DNA from: Thermococcus kodakarensis KOD1
Lineage (GTDB): Archaea > Methanobacteriota_B > Thermococci > Thermococcales > Thermococcaceae
NCBI RefSeq assembly: GCF_000009965.1
Contig: NC_006624.1
Location: 690,001-722,000 of the forward strand
Length of the DNA: 32,000 nucleotides
Direction: 5' to 3'
The notes under the pieces were generated by a model. The model saw nothing but the letters and a program-made list of their open reading frames with translations. It did no database searches and was not told where the DNA came from. The position numbers were made by a program, and so were the translations under genes. This document shows, piece by piece, positions 1,389 through 11,424 of the stretch (position 1 is the stretch's first letter; each line of letters starts with the position of its first letter).

Positions 1389-1400
1389 GGTTTTTAAACC
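1389..1400 (-). promoter_or_regulatory. TATA box for mptA, overlapping the mcrC stop codon
   Basis: Minus strand reads GGTTTAAAAACC, centred about 35 nt upstream of the mptA ATG (1360). A GGTGAG Shine-Dalgarno-like element lies in between. This is the only AT-rich element in the 33-nt mcrC-mptA gap. Confidence 0.4.
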
Positions 1401-2827
1401 TCTCCCGAAGAGCAGAGGCCGAGGATGAAAGACTTCAGGTTTTCGGCGGTGTCCTCATCGATAACTACCGAGTTCTTCCTCAGCAGGATTTCGTCCCCTA
1501 TCATCGAAAGCTCGTACCCGAAGACCCCCACCCTCGTCCCGTCGAAGAACTCAAAGGTATCCTCCGGGCGCGCGCTAAAGAGGTTTGGAATCCAGTGGTT
1601 GTAAATTCCCTCGAGCCGCGGGTAGACTAGGAGAACTGGAACTCTTTTTGCCCCCAAATACTCGCTGACAAGGCGGGAGTACGTGTAGGCCTGATAAAGC
1701 TCGTCGCTCTTCCTAACGAGTTTTCTATGGGCCCTATTCTCTCCTCTGTGATACACGTAGAGGTTTCTGTATTTTACCTCAACGACGCAGGTTCCTTCGT
1801 CGGTGCTGACCACTATGTCTGGAAGGGGGTTGCCCATCATGAAGAGTGCGCCAAATCTAGCCTCGATTTCGCCCGCGTTTTTTATGACGTGGGGCAGCTG
1901 AACCTGGAATCTCACCTCTGCTTCGTTGTCGAGGACGGTCTTCAGCGTCCTGTAAACGAGCGTCTCAAAAAGCTCATCCATCCTGATGAACACTCCTGGA
2001 AGGAACTTCCTCGAACCTCCCGCGGCCAGCCCGAAGTACATCACCCGTGCCAGCCTGAAGACCGTTCTGAACCTCTCGTTGAGGTGGTTGAAGGAAACTT
2101 TCCCGAAGTCGCCGGGTTTTGGGTCACCCACGTCCCTGAAGAGGTCGAGAAGTATTCCTCCGACTTTCCTCGTCTCACTCAGGCGGGCAGACTTTACGGC
2201 GACTTCCAGGGCACCCTTTAGAACCCTGTTGAGGGGATTGTCCTCAAGAAGGAGTGAGTACCTGACGGGCAGGTCGGCCTTCCATGCTGGCCTCCGGGCG
2301 AGTTCATTTACAAGGATTCTGCCGCGGACGGTCTGGGAGCTTTCCTCAATCTCCCCGTATTCGTAGTAGAGTCCTCTGGACAGCGCTCTGGAGAGCATGA
2401 GGACGTAGAGATACTTGAAAATTTCGTCCAGCGCCTTCTGCCTGCCGTATTCAAACACCAAGGCCCTAATTTCGCCCGGCTCAAGACCCATCTGGTAGTA
2501 CATATTGAAGAGCTGAAGGAAGAACAGCAGAGAGCGGCCGTCCTCCCTGTCGTACCTGAAGGGCTTTGGCAGTACCTGCACAAGCACAATCCCGTCATCG
2601 CCCAGGTAGTACGCAAACCCCACACTCCCATGGGTCTTCAGGTGGTATTCATCCCTTCTCGGATCGTAGGTGACTGTAAAGACCGGACTGTCGCCGCCGT
2701 AGAGAGAATTCACAGCCTCGGCGAACTTCATTAGTTCTCTTTCCCCTGTCTGAAGCCCGAGTTTCTTCAGTTCTGAGAGTGGCCTGTTCTCAAACTCGTA
2801 GAGGGTTACGACTCTGAAGTCCATCAT
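1394..2827 (-). CDS. mcrC: McrC-like endonuclease subunit of McrBC restriction system
   Basis: 477 aa. The start overlaps the mcrB stop (ATGATGA at 2822-2828 on the minus strand). The C-terminal PD-(D/E)xK-type motif is …LPDIVVSTDEGTCVVEVKYRN… Position immediately downstream of an McrB-type GTPase is the canonical McrBC arrangement. Confidence 0.8.
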   Translation of the reverse strand: MMDFRVVTLYEFENRPLSELKKLGLQTGERELMKFAEAVNSLYGGDSPVFTVTYDPRRDEYHLKTHGSVGFAYYLGDDGIVLVQVLPKPFRYDREDGRSLLFFLQLFNMYYQMGLEPGEIRALVFEYGRQKALDEIFKYLYVLMLSRALSRGLYYEYGEIEESSQTVRGRILVNELARRPAWKADLPVRYSLLLEDNPLNRVLKGALEVAVKSARLSETRKVGGILLDLFRDVGDPKPGDFGKVSFNHLNERFRTVFRLARVMYFGLAAGGSRKFLPGVFIRMDELFETLVYRTLKTVLDNEAEVRFQVQLPHVIKNAGEIEARFGALFMMGNPLPDIVVSTDEGTCVVEVKYRNLYVYHRGENRAHRKLVRKSDELYQAYTYSRLVSEYLGAKRVPVLLVYPRLEGIYNHWIPNLFSARPEDTFEFFDGTRVGVFGYELSMIGDEILLRKNSVVIDEDTAENLKSFILGLCSSGEV

Positions 2828-4953
2828 TTCTCTGTCACCAGCTTGCGGAGGGCTTCAATGAACTCGTCGTCGTCCATCTCGATTATACGCCCTTTCTCGT
2901 CTATGAACCCGAACCCCGGCAGGGAGCGCCTTATTGCCTCCCAGTTGCCGTAGAAGTATTCCTGGAGAAGAGGGAGTATCTTGTAGTAGAAGACGTCCTT
3001 GAGTGCCTTTGCCCTCTCCTCCGGCTTAGCCTTTATGACCTCCCTGAAGTAGCCGTGGCCTATCGTGTAGTCCTTCCCGCGCTCTTCCTCGATAACCCTG
3101 TTGAGCGTCGAGAGGAGGTGCTGAAGGTTTACACCGCCGACTTCGATATCCCCGAGCTCCTCAGGGCGGGGCAGTATCTCAAGGAACGCAAAGCGCCTCC
3201 TGAGGGCCATGTCAAGGAAAGCTATGCTCCTGTCCGTGGAGTTCATTGTCCCGATTATGTAGAGGTTGGGGGGAAGGGCGAAGGGCTCTCTGGAATACGG
3301 CAGGGTTATTTTTGTCTCGTACTCCATTCCGAGCCTTTTATCGGGATCGAGTAGGGTTATGACCTCACCGAGGATCCTTGAGATGTTTCCTCTGTTTATC
3401 TCATCTATTATTAGGTAGAACTTCCCGCGGGGTTTGAACTCGCCTTTTCCTGTTTGAAGGTATTCAAGGACGGCTTCCTTTTTCTTCTTGTAATCGGCCT
3501 CTCCCTCGTCCGGGTGGAGGCCGCGGAAAATCGCCTCGACTGCAAGCCTCTTTAAAATGCCGTCCTCAACGACATAGAGCAGTTTGCCCTCCTTTTCAAC
3601 GGGCCTAAAACCTTCAACGAAGTCCTCATAGCTGTACGACTGGTGGAACGTAACGACCTCAACCTTATCGGCATCTCTTGAGAGATCCAGGGCAAGCTTC
3701 GTTTTTCCGGTTCCAGGGGGTCCGTAGAGGATTACGCCGCCGAACCTTCTGAGAACCTCTTCGAGCTGGGTGAACTGGTCGTAAGTAATGTCCCCCTCCC
3801 CAGGGGCGGCCTGCGTGGAGACGTAAGAGTATAGATAGTTCGAATCCGGGCGAACGTAATAGTAGAACCTGCCGCTGGCGCTTACTTTTCCAGAGGATTT
3901 GCCCAGAACGAGAACGTCTCCGCTCCTAGATATTCCCGAGAACTTTGGGTCAAAGGCTTCTGGGTTGTACCTGCCGAAGACTGTTCTGTCCACAATGTCA
4001 TCCAGTTTTAGAGAGCCCTTTTGAAGGAGGTCTTCGTACGTGACAAAGCCCCCGTACAGATAGCCCCTGAACTGGCCTATAAGCAGGAAAAGGCCCTTTT
4101 CGGTGAACTTCGTGAACACGAGCTCTCCCGGCAGGGGAATTATCCGCGCTTTCTTGGATGTGAGGATGTAGAGCTCCTTCCCGAGCTTCGTCCCGAGGAC
4201 CGCTATTGGCTCGTTGTCCCTCAGTACGATGTCCCCTATTGCGCCTTTTGTCGGGGGCGCTGGGGAATGGGCCGAAATCGTCTCTACTCCGTCCCAGAAT
4301 TCAATCGGCGAATAATATGGGTGAGGCGGATAGTTTATCCTCCCTATCCTGAGGGTGGGGTTTTTCATCCCGGGCTCTTTGAAGGTGTGGAGTATGTAGA
4401 TTTCATCGTCGGTGTCATGGATGGCATGGAAAAAGGCGTAGCCTCCCTGAAGGCGAGGTATGAAGACTGTCTCAAGGTCGGCGGGGGCACTGAAGTCGAG
4501 TCTCATGTCGCCAAAAATAACCACCCTCTCCATGTTGGTCAGGCTCACGTAGATGGGAAGCCTTGAGAAAGTTACCCTTAGGGCGTGCTCTTTTGGGTTT
4601 TCATCCTGAAACGGATAGAGTGCTATTTCCCCAGTACCGCACTTCATAAATACAGCCACGTTTTCAACGCCCGGAAAAACGACAACGTCCTCCTGGCAGG
4701 GAATCCCAACCCCACTCTTCCACCCCAGAAGCGGGTTCCCCTTCGTATCAAAGATGTGGAGAAACCTGGAGTCGTAGTCGTCCCTTATGAGTACCGAGAG
4801 GTATTCCCCGTTCTCTGAAATTCTCATGTCCTCTATAACGTAATCAACGTTGCTGCCCTCGTATTCTTCCCTGAGGCTTTCAGCTATTTTTTCCAGAGCG
4901 TTTTCGGAAATCTCAAATCTGCCCACGTGAACCACCGAGGTAATGTGGGGCAA
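2824..4953 (-). CDS. mcrB: McrB-family AAA+ GTPase with long non-canonical N-terminal domain
   Basis: C-terminal half has Walker A LYGPPGTGKT, Walker B/McrB signature LIIDEINRGNISRILGEVITLLD, and IGTMNSTDRSIAFLDMALRRRF (compare E. coli McrB MNTADRS…ALRRRF). The maximal ORF starts at TTG 4953. GTG at 4935 is more likely because it lies about 26 nt downstream of TATA 4957-4966 (leaderless). Confidence 0.85.
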   Translation of the reverse strand: MPHITSVVHVGRFEISENALEKIAESLREEYEGSNVDYVIEDMRISENGEYLSVLIRDDYDSRFLHIFDTKGNPLLGWKSGVGIPCQEDVVVFPGVENVAVFMKCGTGEIALYPFQDENPKEHALRVTFSRLPIYVSLTNMERVVIFGDMRLDFSAPADLETVFIPRLQGGYAFFHAIHDTDDEIYILHTFKEPGMKNPTLRIGRINYPPHPYYSPIEFWDGVETISAHSPAPPTKGAIGDIVLRDNEPIAVLGTKLGKELYILTSKKARIIPLPGELVFTKFTEKGLFLLIGQFRGYLYGGFVTYEDLLQKGSLKLDDIVDRTVFGRYNPEAFDPKFSGISRSGDVLVLGKSSGKVSASGRFYYYVRPDSNYLYSYVSTQAAPGEGDITYDQFTQLEEVLRRFGGVILYGPPGTGKTKLALDLSRDADKVEVVTFHQSYSYEDFVEGFRPVEKEGKLLYVVEDGILKRLAVEAIFRGLHPDEGEADYKKKKEAVLEYLQTGKGEFKPRGKFYLIIDEINRGNISRILGEVITLLDPDKRLGMEYETKITLPYSREPFALPPNLYIIGTMNSTDRSIAFLDMALRRRFAFLEILPRPEELGDIEVGGVNLQHLLSTLNRVIEEERGKDYTIGHGYFREVIKAKPEERAKALKDVFYYKILPLLQEYFYGNWEAIRRSLPGFGFIDEKGRIIEMDDDEFIEALRKLVTEK

Positions 4954-4956
4954 CTC

Positions 4957-4966
4957 CTATATAACC
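4957..4966 (-). promoter_or_regulatory. TATA box for mcrBC
   Basis: Minus strand reads GGTTATATAG in the 39-nt gap after the upstream gene's stop (4993). Distance to GTG 4935 fits a leaderless mRNA. Confidence 0.45.
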
Positions 4967-4992
4967 ATAACTGCCCTCAGTGGTTTGGAAAA

Positions 4993-5412
4993 TCACTCCC
5001 CTCGAAAAGAAGAGTAAGAAGTGGTGTACAAATTTGCCAGGTAGTAGACAGTCCTCAGAGGTATTCCGAGCTTTCTGCTGATCTCTTTCATAGGCACGCC
5101 CTTCCGGGCCAATTCAACGACCTGTTTTATCGTTTTCTCATCGTACTTCTTTGGCCTGCCCCTCGGATAGCTCTCTGGCAAAAGCTCCACCCCAAGCTGA
5201 TTCAGGGCCATGATGACTTTTTGAGACACCTTAGGGTAAAGGCTTGGCGGACACGTGATTTTCCTGACGTTCGGCGAGCGCTCTAGGATTTTGACGACTA
5301 CCTCCTTTGTTGGTCGGAGGTTCACATAGACCTCACTCACATCCTCGTTCAGAACCTCGTCCAGCTTCCTGATGAGTTCCGAATATGTCTTCGCCTTTAC
5401 CCTGACCTTCAT
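4993..5412 (-). CDS. Small DNA-binding protein with C-terminal resolvase/Hin-type HTH (resembles archaeal DUF1699 family)
   Basis: 139 aa. The C-terminus RGRPKKYDEKTIKQVVELARKGVPMKEISRKLGIPLRTVYYL is a textbook GRPxx…HTH_7-type motif. SD GGGGTGA lies 5 nt upstream of the ATG. Only 4 nt separate it from the preceding 414-aa ORF. The DUF1699 assignment is from memory. Confidence 0.7.
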   Translation of the reverse strand: MKVRVKAKTYSELIRKLDEVLNEDVSEVYVNLRPTKEVVVKILERSPNVRKITCPPSLYPKVSQKVIMALNQLGVELLPESYPRGRPKKYDEKTIKQVVELARKGVPMKEISRKLGIPLRTVYYLANLYTTSYSSFRGE

Positions 5413-5416
5413 TCAA

Positions 5417-6661
5417 TCACCCCTGGAGCAGGGCGAGGAACTGCTTGGCTTTGTCGCTCTTCGGCATGAACTTGTCAAACTTCTTCGCCTCTTCCTTGGT
5501 GAACAGGACGTTTGCAAGGCCCGATATCACGAACTTCTTCATGGCCTCGGTAAGCTCGTCCTCGGGAATTCCCAGTATTTCGGCAACCTTCTTCTCGTCG
5601 TAGTTGCTTATGCCGTAGAGTAGAACTCCTCCGAGGAGGTAGTTAGGAACCCCGCTGAGGTCCTTCTTCCTTCCAACGAGCTGTTCCTCCATCTCGCACT
5701 TTCTTATGATGTAGAGGCTTCCCTGGCCTGTTTTGAAGTTTGGATCCCACCTAAAGGGCAGGTCGAGGATTGAGTAGTGGCAGTCGAGACAGCTCTTTAT
5801 CCCCGGGAAAACTCCGAGGGTTTCCCTGTCCGCTGGCGACGTGAGGAAGTAGTAGCGGAATATGTCGAGTCCCAGCAGTTCGGCGCCCTTTTCGGGATTA
5901 AATGAGGCATAGGCCAGTGCCAGGTTGTCCACCGTGTAGTGGTTGTTTATGAGGACGCCCCTTGTCTTCACGAGGCTGAGAACCCTCCAGCGGAAGCGCC
6001 TTCCGAACTGCTTCCTCAGCTCGGCCTCGATGTCTGCATCGGCGGGAAGGCTGACGTGGGCCTTTTTCAGGCGGTTGTTCTCAAAGTACTCCACCTCAAG
6101 CCTTATGCTCCTGGTTTTAACCATTCCCTGTTCCCTGAGCCTGCCCTTGATCTCCTTGAAGGCGTCCCTCACGGAGAGGCTCTCCCTGGCGAGGAGCTTG
6201 AGGACGTCTCCCGAGTACGCCAGGTAAGGCAGTATCTCCACTCTCCCGATGCTGTAGGGCTTTCTGGTGGCCTTCACCTTCTCGTCCTTTATCTCGGTCG
6301 CCTTTATCTCACTGCTCCCCCTCTTGAAGGTGTAGTTGGCGTCGAGAATAGCTAACGCGATTTTGTGGGCCGTTATCGCCGAGCGGAGCCTCTCCAGGGC
6401 GAGCGTCCTGTAGTGCCTCTTTCTGTAGAGCCACTGGAGGTGTGGATCGCGGTTTTTCCTGTCTCCCATCGGTACGGAGGGGCCTCCCTCACCAACTCTG
6501 CGCTCAAGCTCCTCCTCAAGCTCCTCAAGGAGGGAAAGGTTGCGGTTTAGAGTCAGGGCTAACCTGACGGGGTCAAAGTCCTGGAAGAGCTCGCCCAGGT
6601 CTATGCCTATATCGTCCAGTATCTTGTTGACCTGGGCGACGAGTTCTTCCGTCGTCGTCAT
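5417..6661 (-). CDS. Uncharacterised 414-aa protein translationally coupled to top6A
   Basis: ATG overlaps the top6A stop (ATGA at 6658-6661). Native-like codon usage. N-terminal acidic coiled-coil-like segment ([12 protein letters not shown]), a CxxCH…C cluster ([10 protein letters not shown]…RKCEME), and a C-terminal HTH-like segment ([23 protein letters not shown]). I recognise no catalytic motif. Confidence 0.8.
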
Positions 6662-7815
6662 GGCAGGAGATCACCGTTGTTTATCTTTTCTGGGAGATAC
6701 TCCTTCGCGACGAACTCGAGGGACTTGTTGGCTAAAGCCTGCTGTTCAATCCTCACTCCCCACTTGAGGGCGAGCTGGAGCTGTCTCTGCCACTCCTTGT
6801 TCTGGAACCAGGGGTAGTTCATCTCCTCGAGGATTCTCTTGTAGTCTCCCGTTGGGCCGCCCTTCTTGTTCGGTGGAATGCCCTTGAGCTTCTCGGTGAC
6901 GTTCTCAAGGCCGTACTTCTTGATGTCGTCCATGGTCATGCCCACGAACTTCGATTCAGGAGTTGCCAGCTTGTCGCTGAGGTAGGCGAGGTTGATCGAA
7001 CCCTGCTTTATGGTCGAGTATATGTACCAACCGTAGGGGTCGCCATCGGTGAAGACAATGATGGGCAACCCTTCCTCGTAGTGGAGCCTGTGGATCAAAC
7101 GCCTAACCCCACGCGAGGCCTGTCCCTGGGTGGCTATGATGAGGGCGTTCTCCCTCTTCGGGAACTTTTCCTCGATGAGACGGTCGGCCATAGCCGCTGT
7201 CTCGACGACTAAGGCGTAGTCAACGTTTATCTCCGGGAACTGGATGTGCTCCACCGTTCCTGGAACGGCCCATCCACCGCTTCCGAGCCTGCTCGCGTTG
7301 AACTCGTCTTCCCCATCGCGGATGACGATGTCGCCGTAGATGTAACCGCGCCTATCGGCGGTTATGTGCATCTCCTCTCTCAAAACGCCGAACATTCTCT
7401 CAAGGTCTTCGATGATCGGGTCGCTCTCGCTCTGGTCTTCGAAGGTGTTCTCCCTCGTTCCCGGAATGGTGTGCTTGTTGGCGTAGTAGGCTTCACGAAG
7501 GCTCGCGTGCTTGCCCTCGCTCACGAGCCTCTTCACGTAGGCCATTATGAGGAGCGTCTGCATGAACTTTCTCGCATGGGCAACGTTGAGGAAGTAGCGC
7601 CTCGAGAGCTTGTCGCCCATCTTGATGAGCCTCGACTTTTCATCAAAGTATACGTTGCTCAGCCCGCGCATCGGGATGTCGAAGTGGGGGTTTTTGCCGG
7701 CTTTGATGTCCTCAAGGATCCTCCTTGCGTGCTCGTCGAGCATCTTCAGGACTTTCCTGGGGTCGTAGGAGAACTTCTCCTTGGGCCTCTCCCTCTGGAT
7801 TTTGCGCTTAGGCAT
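6658..7815 (-). CDS. top6A: DNA topoisomerase VI subunit A (Spo11 homologue)
   Basis: 385 aa. CAP/5Y region …[11 protein letters not shown]…, Toprim acidic residues …[11 protein letters not shown]… and …[13 protein letters not shown]…. 8-nt overlap with top6B. Confidence 0.95.
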
Positions 7816-9517
7816 TCTCGGCCACCTCCTCGGCTGCTACCTCTTCAACCTCCGCGCTTGCAAACTTGCTCTCGATAAACCTGATGAAGTACTCCCTAAT
7901 CTTCTCCTCGGGTTCTCCCGTCAGTATGCTTAAGGCCCTCGCTATCTCAGGGACGTACTTCTCGAAGGTCTTCCTTCTCTTTACCTGGGCCAGCTTCCTG
8001 TGCTTGCCGCTCAGGTAGGTCTGGAGCCTCCTCGCGGCGTCCATTATTGCTAAACGTATCTCGTTGTAAATCTCGTCAACGCTCGCTATGCTCTGCTTTC
8101 CTGTTCCAGTGTAAGGAACGTGGACCGAAACGACGTTTATCATGAGGACGAGCGGTGCCCTGTCAAGGTCGTCTATTTTATAGCGCTTCCAGTCTATAGA
8201 GCGGGCCGCCTGGGTTGTCACACACGAACCTGCATCGAATAGGAGCGGCACCCTGTTGGCGTAGCGGTAGAGGTCGAAGCCAGCCGGAATCTCGCCGCCG
8301 TACGCTATTCCAACCTCGACCTGGAACGGGATACCACCTGAGTAGACTTTTGGCGGTCTGGTAACGGCAGTCACGAACTCTGGTTTGAGTATTCCCTTAA
8401 GGCCCTTCTCGATGTTCTCCTCCCCGATGGGCCTTAGGCCATGAGTTGGGGGCGCCAAGAACTTCATGTACTTGAAGGCCTCGACTATCTCCTCAGCCTC
8501 GTGCCAGGTGAGCTTCTCGGGCGGCTTCTCCATCATTTTGGCGACCTGTTTGACCACCTTGGTGTAGCCCTTGAATGCCCTGAGAACAGCCTTGACGTGT
8601 CCCTCCATAAGCTTCTGGTAGTACTGCTCCTGGAGCTTCTTGTCCTCCACGGTCTTTATCAGCCTGAGGGCAGCGATGTACTCGATGAGTTCATCAACCT
8701 TCTTGTCGCTTATCCTCGAGAACTCGCCGATGAGGAACCTCCTGACGGTGTTCCTCCTCGTCTTCTTGGCCAATCTGTAAACGTCATCGGTGAGGACTCC
8801 CTTCGGGTGAGGCTTCATCTCGACCGGCGGTTCCGGGATGTAGTCGCTCGACCTCGGAAAGACTATGAGTTTTCCGTCCGGTTCAATAAGCTCGATGTGT
8901 GCGTGGGGGTTGGCTATAGCCGTTAGCTTGAGGTACCAGAAGACACCCTGCTTGGAGCGCATGTACTTGACGTTCTTAACTTCGAGCTCTATCCTCGTCC
9001 CGCGCCAGCCCTTCGGGTTTGGATGCTTCTCCTTCTTGACGATTTTACCCTCGTTCTTGTCAACGTCTATCTTAACCCATGCCTCGATTATCTCGTCGTT
9101 TCCGGTTGAAGTGATGACACGTGTGGCCTTTCCACTCGTTATCTGGGCGAACATGACGGCACCGCTTATACCGATACCCTGCTGACCGCGGCTCTGTATG
9201 TTCCTGTGGGCTTTAGTTCCAGCGAGCATCTTTCCGAAGACGTGGGTTATGTACTTCTCCGGTATTCCAGGCCCGTTGTCTTCAACTACAACCTTGTAGT
9301 GCTCGTTCCCGAGCTCCTCTATTTCAACCCTGACGTAGGGCGGGATTCCTGCTTCCTCACAGGCGTCGAGGGAGTTGGTTACCGCCTCGTGGACAAGGGT
9401 CGTCAGCGAGCGGACCTTGCCCGTGTAGCCGAGCATTGCGGCGTTTCTCCTGAAGAACTCGCTGACGCTCTGAATCTTAAACTCCTTGAAGAGCTGGTTA
9501 GCCTCGGCCATAATCAC
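7808..9517 (-). CDS. top6B: DNA topoisomerase VI subunit B (GHKL ATPase)
   Basis: 569 aa. Bergerat-fold boxes [13 protein letters not shown] (N box), EDNGPGI (G1) and [10 protein letters not shown] (G2). ATG overlaps the stop of the upstream KH gene (ATGA). Confidence 0.95.
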
Positions 9518-10230
9518 TCCTCCTCTTCCTCAAATTCATCAAGGTCTTCGGGCAGTTTGCCCTCGAGGGCCTCATAGTAAGTTGTGGCCTCAAGCTCGAG
9601 GTCTTTCTTCCTCCGCTCAAGGTAGCGGTAAACAACACCGTGCGGGGAACCCCTTGCGAGCTTCTCAACGGCGGTTTTGGCAACTTCAACCTGTATCGGG
9701 TTCCCGATTATCGCGACAGTCTTTCCATAGACGCTAATGTCAGCACCGCTCATCTCCTCAATGATTTCCCTCGTCCTTCCCTTTCTTCCGATGATCCTGC
9801 CCCTGACCCTCGGCAGGGCGTTCTTCTCATTGCCGACAACGATGTCGGTGAGGTTCACCACCTCAAGGGTCTCCCCCTCGTTGAAGAGCCTGAAGGCCCT
9901 CTCGGGAGAGAAGCCCCTTCCGATGGCCATAACCACATCTCTCGCCTTCCACACCGCCAGCGGGTCGTCGGTTTCTTCCGTCGCTGTTATGAAGACCTCA
10001 CCCGTCTCACTGTCCACCTCTATCTTCGTCTTGGTTTTTCTCTCGATTTCCTTCTTCGTCTGCCCTTTCTTCCCGATGAGTACCGCTATCCTCTCCTTCG
10101 GGATTTTAACGAACTCCTCCTGCTCACCAAGAGCGGTGAAAGTGATCTCTTCTTCATCCTCTTCTCTCTCAAACCTGCCGTCCTTATCAACGCGCTCATA
10201 CTTCTTAAGGAGCCTCTCAAACTCGTCCAT
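9514..10230 (-). CDS. KH-domain RNA-binding protein (archaeal Dim2/Pno1-like ribosome biogenesis factor)
   Basis: Two KH GxxG loops (VLIGKKGQTKKEIE and RIIGRKGRTREIIE) and an acidic tail (…DEFEEEEE). I chose ATG 10230 (MDEFERLL…) because the ORF-track start at 10284 would overlap the rio1 3' end. Confidence 0.85.
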   Translation of the reverse strand: MDEFERLLKKYERVDKDGRFEREEDEEEITFTALGEQEEFVKIPKERIAVLIGKKGQTKKEIERKTKTKIEVDSETGEVFITATEETDDPLAVWKARDVVMAIGRGFSPERAFRLFNEGETLEVVNLTDIVVGNEKNALPRVRGRIIGRKGRTREIIEEMSGADISVYGKTVAIIGNPIQVEVAKTAVEKLARGSPHGVVYRYLERRKKDLELEATTYYEALEGKLPEDLDEFEEEEE

Positions 10231-10234
10231 GATC

Positions 10235-11011
10235 TCACCCCTCAACGAGCTCGCGGAACTTCCCCTCTGGATCCTCAACATCAACGCCCTTCTTCCTGAA
10301 GTAGTTGGAGACGTTGGTTATGTCCCTCCTCAGGAGTTCAAGGCTCATTCTGTTTCTCCTCACAGTCGCCTGCGACCAGTCTATCACGACCGGCCCGTCG
10401 TGGAGGAGTATGTTGTACTCGCTCAAGTCGCCGTGAACCATGTCACCGCGCTTCCAGAGGCGCTCTATAACCCCCATCGTGAAGTCGTAAAGCCCCTCGA
10501 AGTCCTCCTTACTCAACTCTTTCTCAACGTCCTTGAGGCGTGGAGCTGGGGTTTCATCGCCGACGAACTCCATGACGAGGACGTTGTTTCTAAAGATTAC
10601 TGGCTCTGGAACCCTGACGGCATATTTTATCGCCCTCTGGAGGTTCTTGAACTCCCTCCTCGTCCACACGAAGACGAGCTTCCTCATGTCCTTAGGAAGG
10701 TATCCGATCCTTGGATCAGCTGCCAAGTACTCCCATATCCGCCTGAACTCGGTGGTGTAAGTCCTGTATATCTTGACCGCTATCCTTTTGCCCTCGCTAT
10801 CAATTCCCGCGAAGACGTTGGCCTCTTTCCCCGTGCTGATGACACCGTAGAGGGTCTCTATCTTCCCCCTCCTGTGGAGATAGGCAAGCGTTTCCTTCGT
10901 CGTTCTGTCGAAGACCTCGTTGGCTATCTTGTAGAGCTCGCTGTCCTTCTCTCTTCTCTCCCTGAGGCCGAGCATCTCCTCGATTTCCCTGTCAAGGAAC
11001 TCTTCCCTCAT
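10235..11011 (-). CDS. rio1: RIO-type serine/threonine protein kinase Rio1
   Basis: 258 aa. RIO motifs STGKEANVF (nucleotide loop), HGDLSEYNIL (catalytic loop) and VIDWSQA (metal-binding loop). Confidence 0.9.
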   Translation of the reverse strand: MREEFLDREIEEMLGLRERREKDSELYKIANEVFDRTTKETLAYLHRRGKIETLYGVISTGKEANVFAGIDSEGKRIAVKIYRTYTTEFRRIWEYLAADPRIGYLPKDMRKLVFVWTRREFKNLQRAIKYAVRVPEPVIFRNNVLVMEFVGDETPAPRLKDVEKELSKEDFEGLYDFTMGVIERLWKRGDMVHGDLSEYNILLHDGPVVIDWSQATVRRNRMSLELLRRDITNVSNYFRKKGVDVEDPEGKFRELVEG

Positions 11012-11043: not shown

Positions 11044-11397
11044 TCAGAAGAGGAGCTCGCCGCCGCTGAGGAAGTCCTGGGTTATCTTACCCTTCCTCAG
11101 GAGCCAGTCAACCTGGGTTCTCGTGTAGCGATAGACGATGTCCCCGCGCTCGTCGCTCTGGACCGGCCAGGGCTGGACGATAACCACATCACCAACGCGC
11201 ATCCACATTCTCCTCTTGAGCTTGCCAGGGATCCTGCATCTCCTTACCTTACCGTCCTCACAGCGGACGTCCATCCATCCTGCTCCGAGGGCCTGCTCGA
11301 TCACTCCGAAGAGCTGTCCCTTGCTCCTGTCTGGAAGGGGAACGCGAATTACCTCATCACCTTCAACATGCCTGTCGTTCTTCTTTTTACCAGCCAT
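11044..11397 (-). CDS. eif1a: Translation initiation factor aIF-1A
   Basis: 117 aa from ATG 11397 ([22 protein letters not shown]…[20 protein letters not shown]…). GGAGGTG sits 6 nt upstream. The ORF-track N-terminal extension to 11496 covers promoter-like AT-rich DNA. Confidence 0.9.
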
Positions 11398-11424
11398 GAG
11401 CATCACCTCCCGTGAGTCGTGATT

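What the first reader, a model, noticed from the sequence alone, without database searches (positions are those of the whole stretch)
4993..6661. Two uncharacterised HTH proteins translationally coupled to the topoisomerase VI operon
The 414-aa ORF starts on the ATGA that ends top6A. The 139-aa ORF follows 4 nt later with its SD inside the 414-aa gene. Both therefore appear to be expressed stoichiometrically with Top6B/Top6A. The 139-aa protein ends in a resolvase/Hin-type HTH (GRPKKY…ISRKLGIPLRTVYYL). The 414-aa protein has an acidic coiled-coil N-terminus, a CxxCH…C cluster and a C-terminal HTH-like segment. Plant Topo VI needs accessory subunits (RHL1, BIN4), but no archaeal Topo VI accessory factor is established. 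Tight coupling makes these two candidates for DNA-targeting or regulatory partners of archaeal Topo VI. Alternatively they could regulate the mcrBC module immediately downstream.
Basis: inference. Interest (0 to 1): 0.65.

Follow-up and report, generated by a model that had tools for sequence, protein, structure and literature searches.

The report
Orphan DNA-binding gene pair behind topoisomerase VI
Two uncharacterised genes (DUF530 and a DUF1699/helix-turn-helix protein) always travel together and sit at the tail of the Thermococcus operon that also encodes topoisomerase VI, but the same pair is just as tightly attached to unrelated housekeeping genes in other archaea, so a topoisomerase VI partnership is possible but unproven.

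Summary
The window is Thermococcus kodakarensis KOD1. ORF414 is TK0797 (Pfam DUF530) and ORF139 is TK0796 (DUF1699_N domain plus a Hin/resolvase-type HTH). The ATGA overlap with top6A, the 4-nt spacer and the internal SD sites are all present.

Published TSS mapping shows the unit is wider than a Topo VI operon. It is a 7-gene unit: aIF1A, Rio1, KH/Dim2, top6B, top6A, TK0797, TK0796. mcrBC has its own promoter and occurs in only 3 of the Thermococci loci, so the "mcrBC regulator" reading is rejected.

DUF530 and DUF1699 form a near-obligate pair. They are adjacent in almost every lineage and fused in one protein. Neither has a significant sequence or fold match to any characterised protein apart from the HTH.

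Linkage to top6A holds in all Thermococci and in three other deep lineages. In Methanobacteriales the pair follows MetRS instead, with the same ATGA overlap in 40 of 73 loci. Elsewhere it follows PcrB, KH or aIF2α. The family is small, whereas Topo VI is nearly universal in archaea. T. kodakarensis AP-MS tables list Top6A/B repeatedly but never TK0797 or TK0796.

The best reading is a heteromeric DNA-binding module of unknown housekeeping function. A dedicated Topo VI accessory role has a probability of about 0.2.

The parts
5417..6661 (-). ORF414 = TK0797, a DUF530 family protein of 414 aa. It has an acidic N-terminal helical hairpin, a basic central alpha/beta domain and a C-terminal helical domain with an HTH-like three-helix unit.
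   Evidence: Pfam PF04409: 101 bits against a cut-off of 27, matching residues 8-255 only. Full-length homology to distant members comes from a profile search. AlphaFold model: pLDDT 87, pTM 0.81. Charge profile. Genome identity.
4993..5412 (-). ORF139 = TK0796. It has a DUF1699_N small alpha/beta domain (residues 1-80), an RGRPKKY arm and a Hin/resolvase-type HTH (residues 85-128).
   Evidence: HTH_7: 29.5 bits against a cut-off of 23.8. DUF1699 PF08004: 32.1 bits, just under its 33.4 cut-off. Homologues carry PF28505 and are named DUF1699 family protein. Model pLDDT 86. PDB profile hits to Cbp1, Hin and gamma-delta resolvase DNA-binding domains.
6658..6661 (-). ATGA overlap of the top6A stop codon and the ORF414 start codon.
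   Evidence: Read directly from the sequence. Conserved in 26 of 27 Thermococci loci.
6669..6675 (-). GGTGATC Shine-Dalgarno-like site for ORF414, inside the top6A coding sequence.
   Evidence: Sequence. The corresponding GGTGA or GAGGA motif is kept at the same place in the related loci.
5413..5424 (-). 4-nt spacer (5413-5416) and the GGGGTGAT Shine-Dalgarno-like site that spans the ORF414 stop codon, ahead of the ORF139 ATG.
   Evidence: Sequence. In related loci the gaps are mostly +4, -4 or +6 nt.
6658..7815 (-). top6A (TK0798).
   Evidence: TOP6A-Spo11_Toprim 1e-53, TP6A_N 3e-19. NCBIfam NF003333 5e-193.
7808..9511 (-). top6B (TK0799). It overlaps top6A by 8 nt. Its annotated ATG at 9511 lies 2 nt after the KH gene stop.
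   Evidence: TIGR01052 1.3e-227. Junction sequences. Annotation coordinates.
9514..10230 (-). KH-domain protein (TK0800, Dim2/PNO1-like). It is part of the same transcription unit.
   Evidence: ORF listed. KH_KRR1/KH_PNO1 domains on the orthologous genes in L034, L036 and L040. Annotation.
10235..11011 (-). Rio1-type kinase (TK0801).
   Evidence: ORF listed. RIO1 Pfam domain on the orthologous genes. Annotation.
11044..11407 (-). aIF1A (TK0802, ATG at 11397) with the only primary TSS of the unit at 11407. A TATA-like CTTATAAG lies about 26 nt upstream of the TSS.
   Evidence: TSS table of Jaeger et al. 2014 (PMC4247193, supplementary file 2). Sequence.
7536..7536 (-). Internal sense TSS inside top6A (genome position 697536). 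It could give a transcript that carries TK0797 and TK0796 without intact top6.
   Evidence: No strong TATA box upstream.
4927..4992 (-). Spacer between TK0796 and mcrB. It holds a TTATATA box (4958-4964) and the mapped primary TSS of mcrB at 4935. This marks the end of the unit.
1394..4926 (-). mcrB-like (TK0795, GTG at 4926) and mcrC (TK0794). This is a separate, variably present module and is not part of the feature.
   Evidence: AAA_5, McrB and McrBC domain hits. Present in only L001, L002 and L013 among the Thermococci loci.

Best explanation
TK0797 (DUF530) and TK0796 (DUF1699_N plus Hin-type HTH) are the two subunits of one conserved DNA-binding complex. It is archaea-specific and has no characterised relative.

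Proposed mechanism, with the status of each step:
1. Shown: the two genes form an almost obligate adjacent pair, in the order DUF530 then DUF1699. In one lineage they are fused into a single polypeptide in that same order.
2. Inferred: the small alpha/beta N-domain of TK0796 docks onto TK0797.
3. Inferred from homology to the Hin/resolvase/Cbp1 DNA-binding domains: the RGRPKKY arm plus the three-helix HTH of TK0796 reads DNA (minor groove plus major groove).
4. Inferred from charge and the structure model: the strongly basic central domain of TK0797 (net +13) and its C-terminal HTH-like unit add DNA contacts, and the acidic N-terminal helical hairpin mediates oligomerisation or partner contact.
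5. Shown for T. kodakarensis by TSS mapping and by sequence: the pair has no promoter of its own. It is expressed by read-through and translational coupling from the promoter-distal end of the housekeeping unit aIF1A-Rio1-KH-top6B-top6A.
6. Shown: in other lineages the same cassette sits at the tail of other housekeeping units (MetRS, PcrB, KH, aIF2alpha), repeatedly next to replication genes (primase, MCM, PCNA/GINS, Cdc6/RFC).
7. Inferred: its role is a constitutive DNA-transaction or chromosome function. The adjacency to Topo VI is ancient but dispensable, and does not mark a dedicated, stoichiometric Topo VI subunit.

The pair does not regulate mcrBC.
For: Pairing:
- A DUF1699 profile hits the ORF directly downstream of DUF530 in the non-Thermococci loci L034 to L041, L043 and L044. 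It hits the C-terminus of the fusion protein P0243 in L033. Only L042 lacks a partner.
- The two genes are adjacent in all Thermococci loci and in 76 Methanobacteriales-type loci.

DNA binding:
- HTH_7 hit above its cut-off. PDB profile hits to Cbp1, Hin and gamma-delta resolvase DNA-binding domains.
- Invariant R84-G85-R86-P87 arm.
- Net charges: ORF139 +12, ORF414 residues 110-240 +13.

Orphan status:
- No PDB sequence hit for DUF530 at E<=10.
- No Foldseek hit with E<=0.001 in the PDB or BFVD for either model.
- Nothing for ORF414 in NCBIfam, PADLOC or PHROGs.

Operon tail:
- TSS table. Junction sequences.
- DESeq base means for TK0796 to TK0799 are of the same order.

Coupling is not partner-specific:
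- ATGA overlap with top6A in 26 of 27 Thermococci loci, and with MetRS in 40 of 73 Methanobacteriales-type loci.
- The pair follows PcrB directly (overlapping in L041) in L037 and L041, follows KH in L034, and DUF530 alone follows aIF2alpha in L042.

Replication-gene neighbourhoods.

Narrow distribution: 36 representative clusters.

No co-purification: TK0797/TK0796 are absent from AP-MS tables that list TK0798/TK0799 many times.
Against: - No experiment addresses either protein. No paper in the searched library mentions TK0797 or TK0796.
- Physical interaction between the two proteins is inferred only from gene order and one fusion.
- DNA binding by TK0797 is inferred only from charge and a model.
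- Top6A adjacency is retained on at least three deep branches of a crude DUF530 neighbour-joining tree. In L036, L040, L044 and L048 the gap between top6A and DUF530 is only 12-56 nt. This is more persistence than drift alone would easily give, so a real functional tie to Topo VI cannot be excluded.
- The AP-MS absence is weak negative evidence. The tables list only enriched proteins, some stored files were truncated, and low-abundance or DNA-bound proteins are easily missed.
Confidence: 0.5

Rival explanations
1. Archaeal Topo VI accessory or targeting complex. In this reading the DUF530/DUF1699 heteromer binds Top6A/B and DNA. It would recruit or tune the enzyme, for example for decatenation at particular chromosomal sites, as a functional analogue of plant BIN4/RHL1. 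The lineages where the pair has moved away from top6 would have simply lost the operon link.
For: - top6A-DUF530-DUF1699 is adjacent, in the same order and on the same strand, in all Thermococci loci.
- The same holds in L036/L047/L048, L040 and L044, whose DUF530 is only about 20-27% identical to the window protein.
- These members lie on at least three deep branches of the family tree.
- The ATGA overlap is conserved in 26 of 27 Thermococci loci.
- The partner protein is DNA-binding and has an AT-hook-like RGRP arm.
- Transcript levels are similar to those of top6A/B.
- No archaeal Topo VI partner is known, so the niche is open.
Against: - The pair is unlinked from top6 in Methanobacteriales (76 loci), in the Methanofastidiosia-type loci, and in L033, L034, L042 and L043.
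- In L034 the pair stays behind KH while top6BA is absent from the cluster.
- The same ATGA coupling to MetRS occurs in 40 of 73 loci.
- The family is far rarer than Topo VI.
- From established knowledge: Topo VI from Sulfolobus and Methanosarcina, which gave no hit in the exhaustive search, is active as A2B2 alone.
- TK0797/TK0796 are never listed in AP-MS tables that repeatedly list TK0798/TK0799.
- DUF530 and DUF1699 evolve much faster than Top6A/B within Thermococci: 52-75% and 55-76% identity against 83-94% and 75-93%.
Confidence: 0.2
2. Transcription regulator. TK0796 would be a sequence-specific HTH repressor or activator, with TK0797 as its co-regulator or sensor. It would control the host operon (autoregulation from the operon tail) or a regulon elsewhere.
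For: - Small HTH_7/HTH_23-type protein.
- Closest solved relative by sequence profile is the sequence-specific CRISPR repeat-binding protein Cbp1.
- The position at the end of operons is common for autoregulators (inference).
- The invariant loops RPTK and CPPSxYPKVS in the alpha/beta domain could form a ligand or partner site.
Against: - The host operon differs between lineages (top6, MetRS, PcrB, aIF2alpha), so regulation of one conserved target operon is unlikely.
- Constitutive housekeeping units rarely need a dedicated regulator (inference).
- A partner of 370-580 aa is unusual for a simple repressor, and DUF530 has no recognisable sensor domain.
Confidence: 0.15
3. Regulators or accessory proteins of the mcrBC restriction module immediately downstream.
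For: Only the physical proximity in this genome: there is a 66-nt spacer between TK0796 and mcrB.
Against: - mcrBC is present in only 3 Thermococci loci (L001, L002, L013). In the others with enough downstream sequence mptA lies downstream of DUF1699, directly in many.
- mcrB has its own TATA box and its own mapped primary TSS.
- The pair exists in lineages where no mcrBC appears in the gene tables of the loci examined.
- No PADLOC hit for ORF414, and only weak HTH-only hits for ORF139.
Confidence: 0.02
4. Domesticated or decayed mobile-element module. ORF139 would be a remnant of a serine recombinase/invertase (alpha/beta domain plus HTH_7) and ORF414 its accessory protein.
For: - The architecture (alpha/beta domain, then a GRP arm, then HTH_7) mirrors resolvase/Hin.
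- Weak Foldseek hits to Tn3 resolvase and Bin (E 0.03-0.05).
- PHROG DNA-invertase hit over the HTH only.
Against: - No hit to the resolvase catalytic domain family.
- The position equivalent to the catalytic serine is not conserved. Residue 11 varies, and only E12 and L13 are invariant nearby.
- The location is stable and syntenic within housekeeping operons across a whole class.
- The Foldseek matches are not significant.
Confidence: 0.03

Closest known systems
Pfam DUF530 (PF04409), archetype in Methanobacteriales (e.g. Methanothermus fervidus ADP77406.1)
   Same: Clear homology: 101 bits against a cut-off of 27. It shares conserved motifs with distant members, such as A-x-x-H-[KR]-I-A, LP-x-x-G-[DN]-Y, D-[LI]-F-x-Y-[YF]-L...R...FP and a C-terminal KAK-x-FL. 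It is always followed by a DUF1699 gene.
   Different: The Thermococci form is about 100 aa shorter. It lacks the CxxC...CxCG zinc ribbon that follows the long helix. It also lacks a roughly 100-residue stretch present in the longer (~520-aa) archetype proteins. Only its N-terminal 60% aligns to the Pfam model. It follows top6A rather than MetRS. The family itself has no known function or solved structure.
Hin / gamma-delta resolvase C-terminal DNA-binding domain (HTH_7) and the CRISPR repeat-binding protein Cbp1
   Same: A three-helix HTH preceded by a G-R-P arm of the kind that lies in the minor groove in Hin. Sequence-profile hits: Cbp1 (2lvs) 2.9e-07, gamma-delta resolvase and Hin about 0.03.
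   Different: There is no serine-recombinase catalytic domain and no conserved catalytic serine. Cbp1 consists of tandem HTH repeats, whereas ORF139 has a single HTH plus a novel four-stranded alpha/beta domain.
Plant/eukaryotic Topo VI accessory proteins BIN4 and RHL1
   Same: They would be functional analogues if the Topo VI reading is right: two small-to-medium DNA-binding proteins that form a heterodimer and associate with Topo VI. BIN4 is described as having an AT-hook (my own recollection), and ORF139 has an RGRPKK arm.
   Different: No homology is apparent. BIN4/RHL1 share a beta-barrel core like Ctf8/Dcc1, and they co-occur strictly with Topo VI in eukaryotes (PMC9665070). They are reported absent from archaea (PMC11302465). 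DUF530/DUF1699 have different predicted folds and do not co-occur strictly with Topo VI.
Replication/translation gene superclusters of Archaea (Berthon et al. 2008, PMC2643942)
   Same: The pair is embedded in just this kind of mixed cluster. Examples are MCM-RPA-aIF2beta-aIF1A-Rio1-KH-top6BA and PCNA-GINS-L44e-aIF2alpha. In such clusters functionally unrelated housekeeping genes are co-transcribed.
   Different: That paper's main text does not contain the terms DUF530, Rio1 or Dim2. Membership of the pair in these clusters is an observation made here.

Membership tests
DUF530 (PF04409) | Score above Pfam's gathering threshold. | tested here: met
   101 bits against a cut-off of 27, E 7.5e-29, residues 8-255. 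The sub-regions hit individually.
DUF530 (PF04409) | Full-length homology to archetypal members, including the C-terminal half. | tested here: met
   A profile of Thermococci sequences aligns end to end with distant members (P0228 6-413, P0241 7-399, P0243 8-414). The C-terminal motifs are shared.
DUF530 (PF04409) | Zinc ribbon (CxxC...CxC) after the long helix, as in the Methanobacteriales archetype. | tested here: not met
   Absent from ORF414 and from all Thermococci. It is also absent from several other branches, so it is not universal in the family.
DUF1699 (PF08004 / PF28505 DUF1699_N) | Score above the curated threshold. | tested here: inconclusive
   PF08004 scores 32.1 bits against a cut-off of 33.4 for the window protein. 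Close homologues carry precomputed PF28505 hits and are named 'DUF1699 family protein' by NCBI. A profile of the Thermococci proteins finds the PF28505-annotated genes in distant loci at 1e-17 to 1e-42.
HTH_7 (resolvase/Hin-type helix-turn-helix) | Pfam threshold met, and a three-helix unit preceded by a basic GRP arm. | tested here: met
   29.5 bits against a cut-off of 23.8. Helices 92-103, 108-115 and 119-134 in the model. Invariant RGRP. PDB hits.
Serine recombinase (resolvase/invertase) | N-terminal catalytic domain with a conserved nucleophilic serine. | tested here: not met
   No resolvase-domain hit. The equivalent position is variable. Foldseek gives only E 0.03 and TM 0.35.
Topo VI holoenzyme subunit / dedicated accessory factor | Phyletic co-occurrence with Top6A/B. 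| tested here: not met
   36 representative clusters in total, from a few euryarchaeal/DPANN groups. Topo VI is present in all archaea except Thermoplasmatales (PMC11894792).
Topo VI holoenzyme subunit / dedicated accessory factor | Conserved gene linkage with top6A/top6B. | tested here: inconclusive
   Linked in Thermococci and in three other lineages. Unlinked in Methanobacteriales and in at least five other lineages.
Topo VI holoenzyme subunit / dedicated accessory factor | Physical association with Top6A/B. | not testable with these tools
   There is only indirect negative evidence. TK0797/TK0796 are absent from published AP-MS tables in which TK0798/TK0799 recur. No multimer prediction was available.
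BIN4 / RHL1 (eukaryotic Topo VI accessory proteins) | Homology to the conserved beta-barrel core. | not tested
   No BIN4/RHL1 sequences or profiles were at hand. The literature reports no archaeal homologues (PMC11302465). The predicted folds of ORF414 and ORF139 are not beta-barrels.
McrBC system component / regulator | Co-occurrence with mcrB/mcrC, or a match to defence-system profiles. | tested here: not met
   mcrBC is present in 3 Thermococci loci only. PADLOC gives no hit for ORF414 and only weak HTH-only hits for ORF139.

The most novel reading that the evidence does not exclude
DUF530/DUF1699 would be the first accessory complex of archaeal topoisomerase VI. It would be a heteromeric DNA-binding module, ancestrally encoded in one operon with top6B-top6A, that targets or modulates Topo VI on the chromosome (for example for decatenation). 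It would be non-homologous but functionally analogous to plant BIN4/RHL1, and restricted to Thermococci, Methanobacteriales and a few related lineages.
Probability: 0.2. Interest if true: 0.8.

Novelty: new member of a known kind. Interest (0 to 1): 0.45.

Why it matters
Topo VI is the main, and in Thermococcales the only, type II topoisomerase of archaea, and it is the ancestor of Spo11. No archaeal partner or regulator of it has been described, whereas the plant enzyme needs BIN4 and RHL1.

A conserved, structurally orphan DNA-binding pair that has stayed behind top6A across a whole class and in three other deep lineages is therefore a concrete, testable candidate in a genetically tractable organism, T. 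kodakarensis.

Even if the Topo VI link turns out to be only inherited gene order, the pair is still of interest. It is a near-obligate two-protein module with no known fold relatives. It repeatedly rides at the end of replication/translation superoperons, so it is a piece of archaeal housekeeping 'dark matter'.

The work also gives a caution of general use. An ATGA overlap with the upstream gene is not evidence of a specific partnership, because the same cassette is coupled in the same way to MetRS in another order.

Tried and rejected
- Fold searches. The ORF414 model was searched against the PDB and BFVD, and the ORF139 model against the PDB. No match reached E<=0.001. The top hits (crAss portal, IRAP, D-lactate dehydrogenase, Tn3 resolvase) have TM scores of 0.4 or less and were not used.
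- A profile search of DUF530 against PDB sequences gave zero hits at E<=10.
- NCBIfam, PADLOC and PHROGs gave nothing for ORF414.
- Pfam scans of three ORF414 sub-regions at E<=10 gave only DUF530 and two noise-level hits (zf-C2H2_9, HTH_8).
- A third homologue search with a mixed alignment (A3) was swamped by Thermococci and added only P0255.
- The metagenome scan with A3 failed because the alignment had no conserved stretch. It was repeated with A4.
- Literature searches for DUF530, DUF1699, TK0796/TK0797 and my guessed Pyrococcus locus tags found nothing relevant. The arCOG 2015 paper, Berthon 2008, the P. abyssi interaction network and two topoisomerase reviews do not mention the pair or any archaeal Topo VI partner.
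- The idea that the CxxCH...C cluster is a conserved metal site was rejected. It is Thermococci-specific and is broken in Palaeococcus.
- The idea that ORF139 is a decayed serine recombinase was rejected.
- The lineages of the metagenomic contigs L033, L034, L036 and L044 could not be determined with the tools available.
Full report
**Identity of the window and check of the observation**

The window is Thermococcus kodakarensis KOD1. ORF414 is 100% identical to a protein found on a 2,088,737-bp contig. The gene coordinates in the supplementary tables of Jaeger et al. 2014 equal the window coordinates plus 690,000:
- TK0796: 694993-695412
- TK0797: 695417-696661
- TK0798 (top6A): 696658-697815
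- TK0799 (top6B)
- TK0800 (KH protein)
- TK0801 (Rio1)
- TK0802 (aIF1A)
- TK0795/TK0794 (mcrBC)

All genes lie on the minus strand.
- Bases 6658-6661 read ATGA, so the ORF414 ATG overlaps the top6A TGA. GGTGATC lies 7 nt upstream.
- The ORF139 ATG follows the ORF414 stop after 4 nt, and GGGGTGAT spans that stop.
- top6A and top6B are confirmed by Pfam and NCBIfam. The downstream genes are McrB-like (AAA_5) and McrC.

**What the two proteins are**

ORF414 belongs to Pfam DUF530 (101 bits, cut-off 27), but only residues 8-255 align to the model.

ORF139 has an HTH_7 domain above threshold and scores just under the threshold for DUF1699. Its homologues carry PF28505 (DUF1699_N) and are named 'DUF1699 family protein'.

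The AlphaFold models are confident.
- ORF414 (pLDDT 87, pTM 0.81):
  - a helical hairpin at 4-56, net charge -10
  - a long helix at 73-109
  - an alpha/beta domain with three long strands at 110-236, net charge +13
  - an all-helical C-terminal part with an HTH-like three-helix unit at 340-380 (charges)
- ORF139 (pLDDT 86):
  - a four-stranded beta-alpha domain at 1-80
  - an invariant RGRP arm
  - a three-helix HTH

A profile of the ORF139 family hits the DNA-binding domains of Cbp1, Hin and gamma-delta resolvase in the PDB. No resolvase catalytic domain is detected, and the serine position is not conserved.

Neither protein has a characterised relative beyond that HTH.
- DUF530 has no PDB sequence match at E<=10.
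- Neither model has a Foldseek match with E<=0.001 in the PDB or BFVD.
- NCBIfam, PADLOC and PHROGs give nothing for ORF414.

The zinc ribbon typical of the Methanobacteriales archetype is missing in Thermococci.

**The transcription unit**

Published dRNA-seq lists only three sense-strand TSSs in this stretch:
- 701407: primary, 10 nt upstream of aIF1A, with a TATA-like box at about -26
- 697536: internal to top6A, with no strong TATA box
- 694935: primary for mcrB, 9 nt upstream of its GTG and 26 nt downstream of a TTATATA box in the 66-nt spacer after TK0796

No TSS is listed for TK0801 to TK0796. The genes therefore lie at the promoter-distal end of a seven-gene unit: aIF1A, Rio1, KH, top6B, top6A, TK0797, TK0796. 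This is not a dedicated Topo VI operon.

The other junctions in the unit are equally tight. KH to top6B has a 2-nt spacer behind GAGGAGGAGTGA, and top6B to top6A has an 8-nt overlap. DESeq base means for TK0796 to TK0799 are of the same order, which fits co-transcription.

**Comparative genomics within Thermococci**

A scan of one genome per species returned 32 Thermococci loci.
- In every locus with enough flanking sequence the order is KH-top6B-top6A-DUF530-DUF1699.
- The ATGA overlap is kept in 26 of 27 loci, with a GGTGA or GAGGA motif at the same distance.
- mcrBC is present in only three loci (L001, L002, L013). In the others with enough downstream sequence mptA lies downstream of DUF1699, directly in many.

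mcrBC is therefore a variable insert with its own promoter.

**Beyond Thermococci**

An exhaustive HMMER search of 1.84 billion representative proteins found only 36 clusters at E<=0.001. The source names that were available are Methanobacteriales (Methanothermus, Methanothermobacter, Methanobacterium, Methanobrevibacter, Methanosphaera), Methanofastidiosia, 'Methanomicrobia archaeon' MAGs and a Diapherotrites MAG.

The gene neighbourhoods were as follows.

| Locus or group | Arrangement |
|---|---|
| L036/L047/L048 | aIF1A-Rio1-KH-top6B-top6A-DUF530-DUF1699 (aIF1A seen in the L036 gene table only) |
| L040 (Diapherotrites MAG) | Same arrangement, preceded by MCM-RPA-aIF2beta |
| L044 | KH-top6B-top6A-DUF530-DUF1699 |
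| L034 | aIF1A-Rio1-KH-DUF530-DUF1699, with no top6 in between |
| Methanobacteriales (L038, L039 and 76 metagenomic loci) | MetRS-DUF530-DUF1699, with primase PriS/PriL next door |
| L037/L041 | PcrB-DUF530-DUF1699, with MCM nearby (seen in L041) |
| L042 | PCNA-GINS-L44e-...-aIF2alpha-DUF530, without DUF1699 |
| L043 | DUF530 followed by a divergent DUF1699 |
| L033 | A single 578-aa protein fusing DUF530 to DUF1699_N-HTH, next to Cdc6, RFC, GINS and MCM |

A DUF1699 profile finds the gene immediately downstream of DUF530 in every one of these lineages except L042. On a crude neighbour-joining tree the top6-linked members fall on at least three deep branches.

**What this means for the Topo VI idea**

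The linkage is conserved well outside the species, and there is no match to an unrelated characterised family. The hypothesis therefore survives.

Its main argument, however, fails a direct control. The argument was that tight translational coupling implies a stoichiometric partnership.
- In 40 of 73 Methanobacteriales-type loci the DUF530 ATG overlaps the MetRS stop by the same 4 nt.
- In the Methanofastidiosia-type loci the pair follows PcrB directly, overlapping it in L041.
- In the window the ribosome-biogenesis KH protein is coupled to top6B just as tightly.

The cassette evidently lacks its own promoter and rides at the tail of whichever housekeeping unit it sits in.

Further points argue against a core-subunit role.
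- The family is far rarer than Topo VI, which is present in all archaea except Thermoplasmatales (PMC11894792).
- It is established knowledge that Topo VI from Sulfolobus and Methanosarcina works as A2B2 alone.
- In L034 the pair stays with KH and Rio1 while top6BA is absent from the cluster.
- In T. kodakarensis ferredoxin pull-downs and a large interactome data set, TK0798 and TK0799 are listed many times and TK0797/TK0796 never. This is weak negative evidence, because the tables are thresholded and some stored files were truncated.
- No paper in the searched library mentions TK0796 or TK0797.
- RHL1 and BIN4 are reported absent from archaea (PMC11302465). They have a beta-barrel core unlike these models (PMC9665070).

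**Most likely explanation**

Three things are shown:
- The two genes form a near-obligate pair, fused in one lineage.
- One partner carries a Hin-type DNA-binding domain.
- Both are expressed from the distal end of a housekeeping unit.

Three things are inferred:
- The proteins form a heteromer, with the DUF1699_N domain docking on DUF530. This is consistent with the fusion order.
- The complex binds DNA through the HTH and GRP arm of TK0796 and through the basic central domain and C-terminal HTH-like unit of TK0797.
- It serves a constitutive DNA-transaction or chromosome function. The recurring neighbours (Topo VI, primase, MCM, PCNA/GINS, Cdc6/RFC) suggest this.

I put about 0.5 on this reading, meaning a DNA-binding housekeeping pair that is not a dedicated Topo VI subunit. 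I put about 0.2 on a genuine Topo VI accessory or targeting role, about 0.15 on a transcription regulator, and a few percent on the remaining rivals.

**Novelty and interest**

The genes are ordinary members of two catalogued but uncharacterised Pfam families, so I file them as members of a known kind. That 'kind' has no known function and no fold relative.

Interest is moderate (0.45). The Topo VI link is old, recurrent and testable in a tractable organism, but the present evidence does not make it the most likely reading.

Noticed in passing
window 1394-4992 (TK0794/TK0795): mcrBC is a variable insert between DUF1699 and mptA. It is present in only 3 of the Thermococci loci and has its own TATA box (4958-4964) and TSS (4935). 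The first ~390 residues of the McrB-like protein have no Pfam domain. A 2025 paper (PMC11840125) recovered TK0795 in a pull-down with DNA probes from the dif chromosomal boundary region. Its deletion slightly strengthened that boundary.
   Followed up: partly
L033 8223-13307: A natural fusion protein P0243 (578 aa) joins DUF530 to DUF1699_N-HTH. It is followed by a 1091-aa protein with no Pfam hit, then by Cdc6, an HTH protein, RFC small and large subunits, GINS and MCM. The large orphan neighbour was not analysed.
   Followed up: no
L038, L039, L049-L124: In Methanobacteriales the pair always follows methionyl-tRNA synthetase, with an ATGA overlap in 40 of 73 loci. The primase genes priS and priL lie next to this block. 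They are on the same strand in Methanothermus and on the opposite strand upstream in most others.
   Followed up: yes
L034 8093-12122: On a 706-kb metagenomic contig the cluster reads aIF1A-Rio1-KH-DUF530-DUF1699, with no top6B or top6A in between. It is unknown whether that organism encodes Topo VI elsewhere.
   Followed up: no
window 6621 (+), 4940 (+), 4987 (+): The published dRNA-seq lists antisense TSSs opposite the TK0797/TK0798 junction (genome position 696621) and opposite the 3' end of TK0796 (694940 and 694987). Their function is unknown.
   Followed up: no
window 7536 (-): An internal sense TSS lies inside top6A, 279 nt after its start, with no clear TATA box. If real, it would allow TK0797 and TK0796 to be expressed without full-length top6A or top6B. 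That would undercut strict stoichiometry.
   Followed up: partly
window 4993-5412; alignment A2: The DUF1699_N domain has invariant loop motifs, R33-P34-T35-K36 and C54-P55-P56-S57-x-Y59-P60-K61-V62-S63, which I place near the ends of strands 2 and 3 of the model. These positions are typical of ligand or partner sites in Rossmann-like folds. RPT and CP are also kept in the fusion protein P0243.
   Followed up: partly
PMC6401487 and PMC12016516 (T. kodakarensis AP-MS data): Both Topo VI subunits are recurrent co-purifying proteins with ferredoxins, rubrerythrins and oxidoreductases in His-tag purifications. The authors call them unanticipated partners. This may be a sticky-protein artefact or a real link, and it is unexplained.
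   Followed up: no
L041 11491-12231: In the Methanofastidiosia-type locus L041 a TPD-domain gene (PF14811) overlaps the end of DUF1699, which extends the cassette by one gene there.
   Followed up: no
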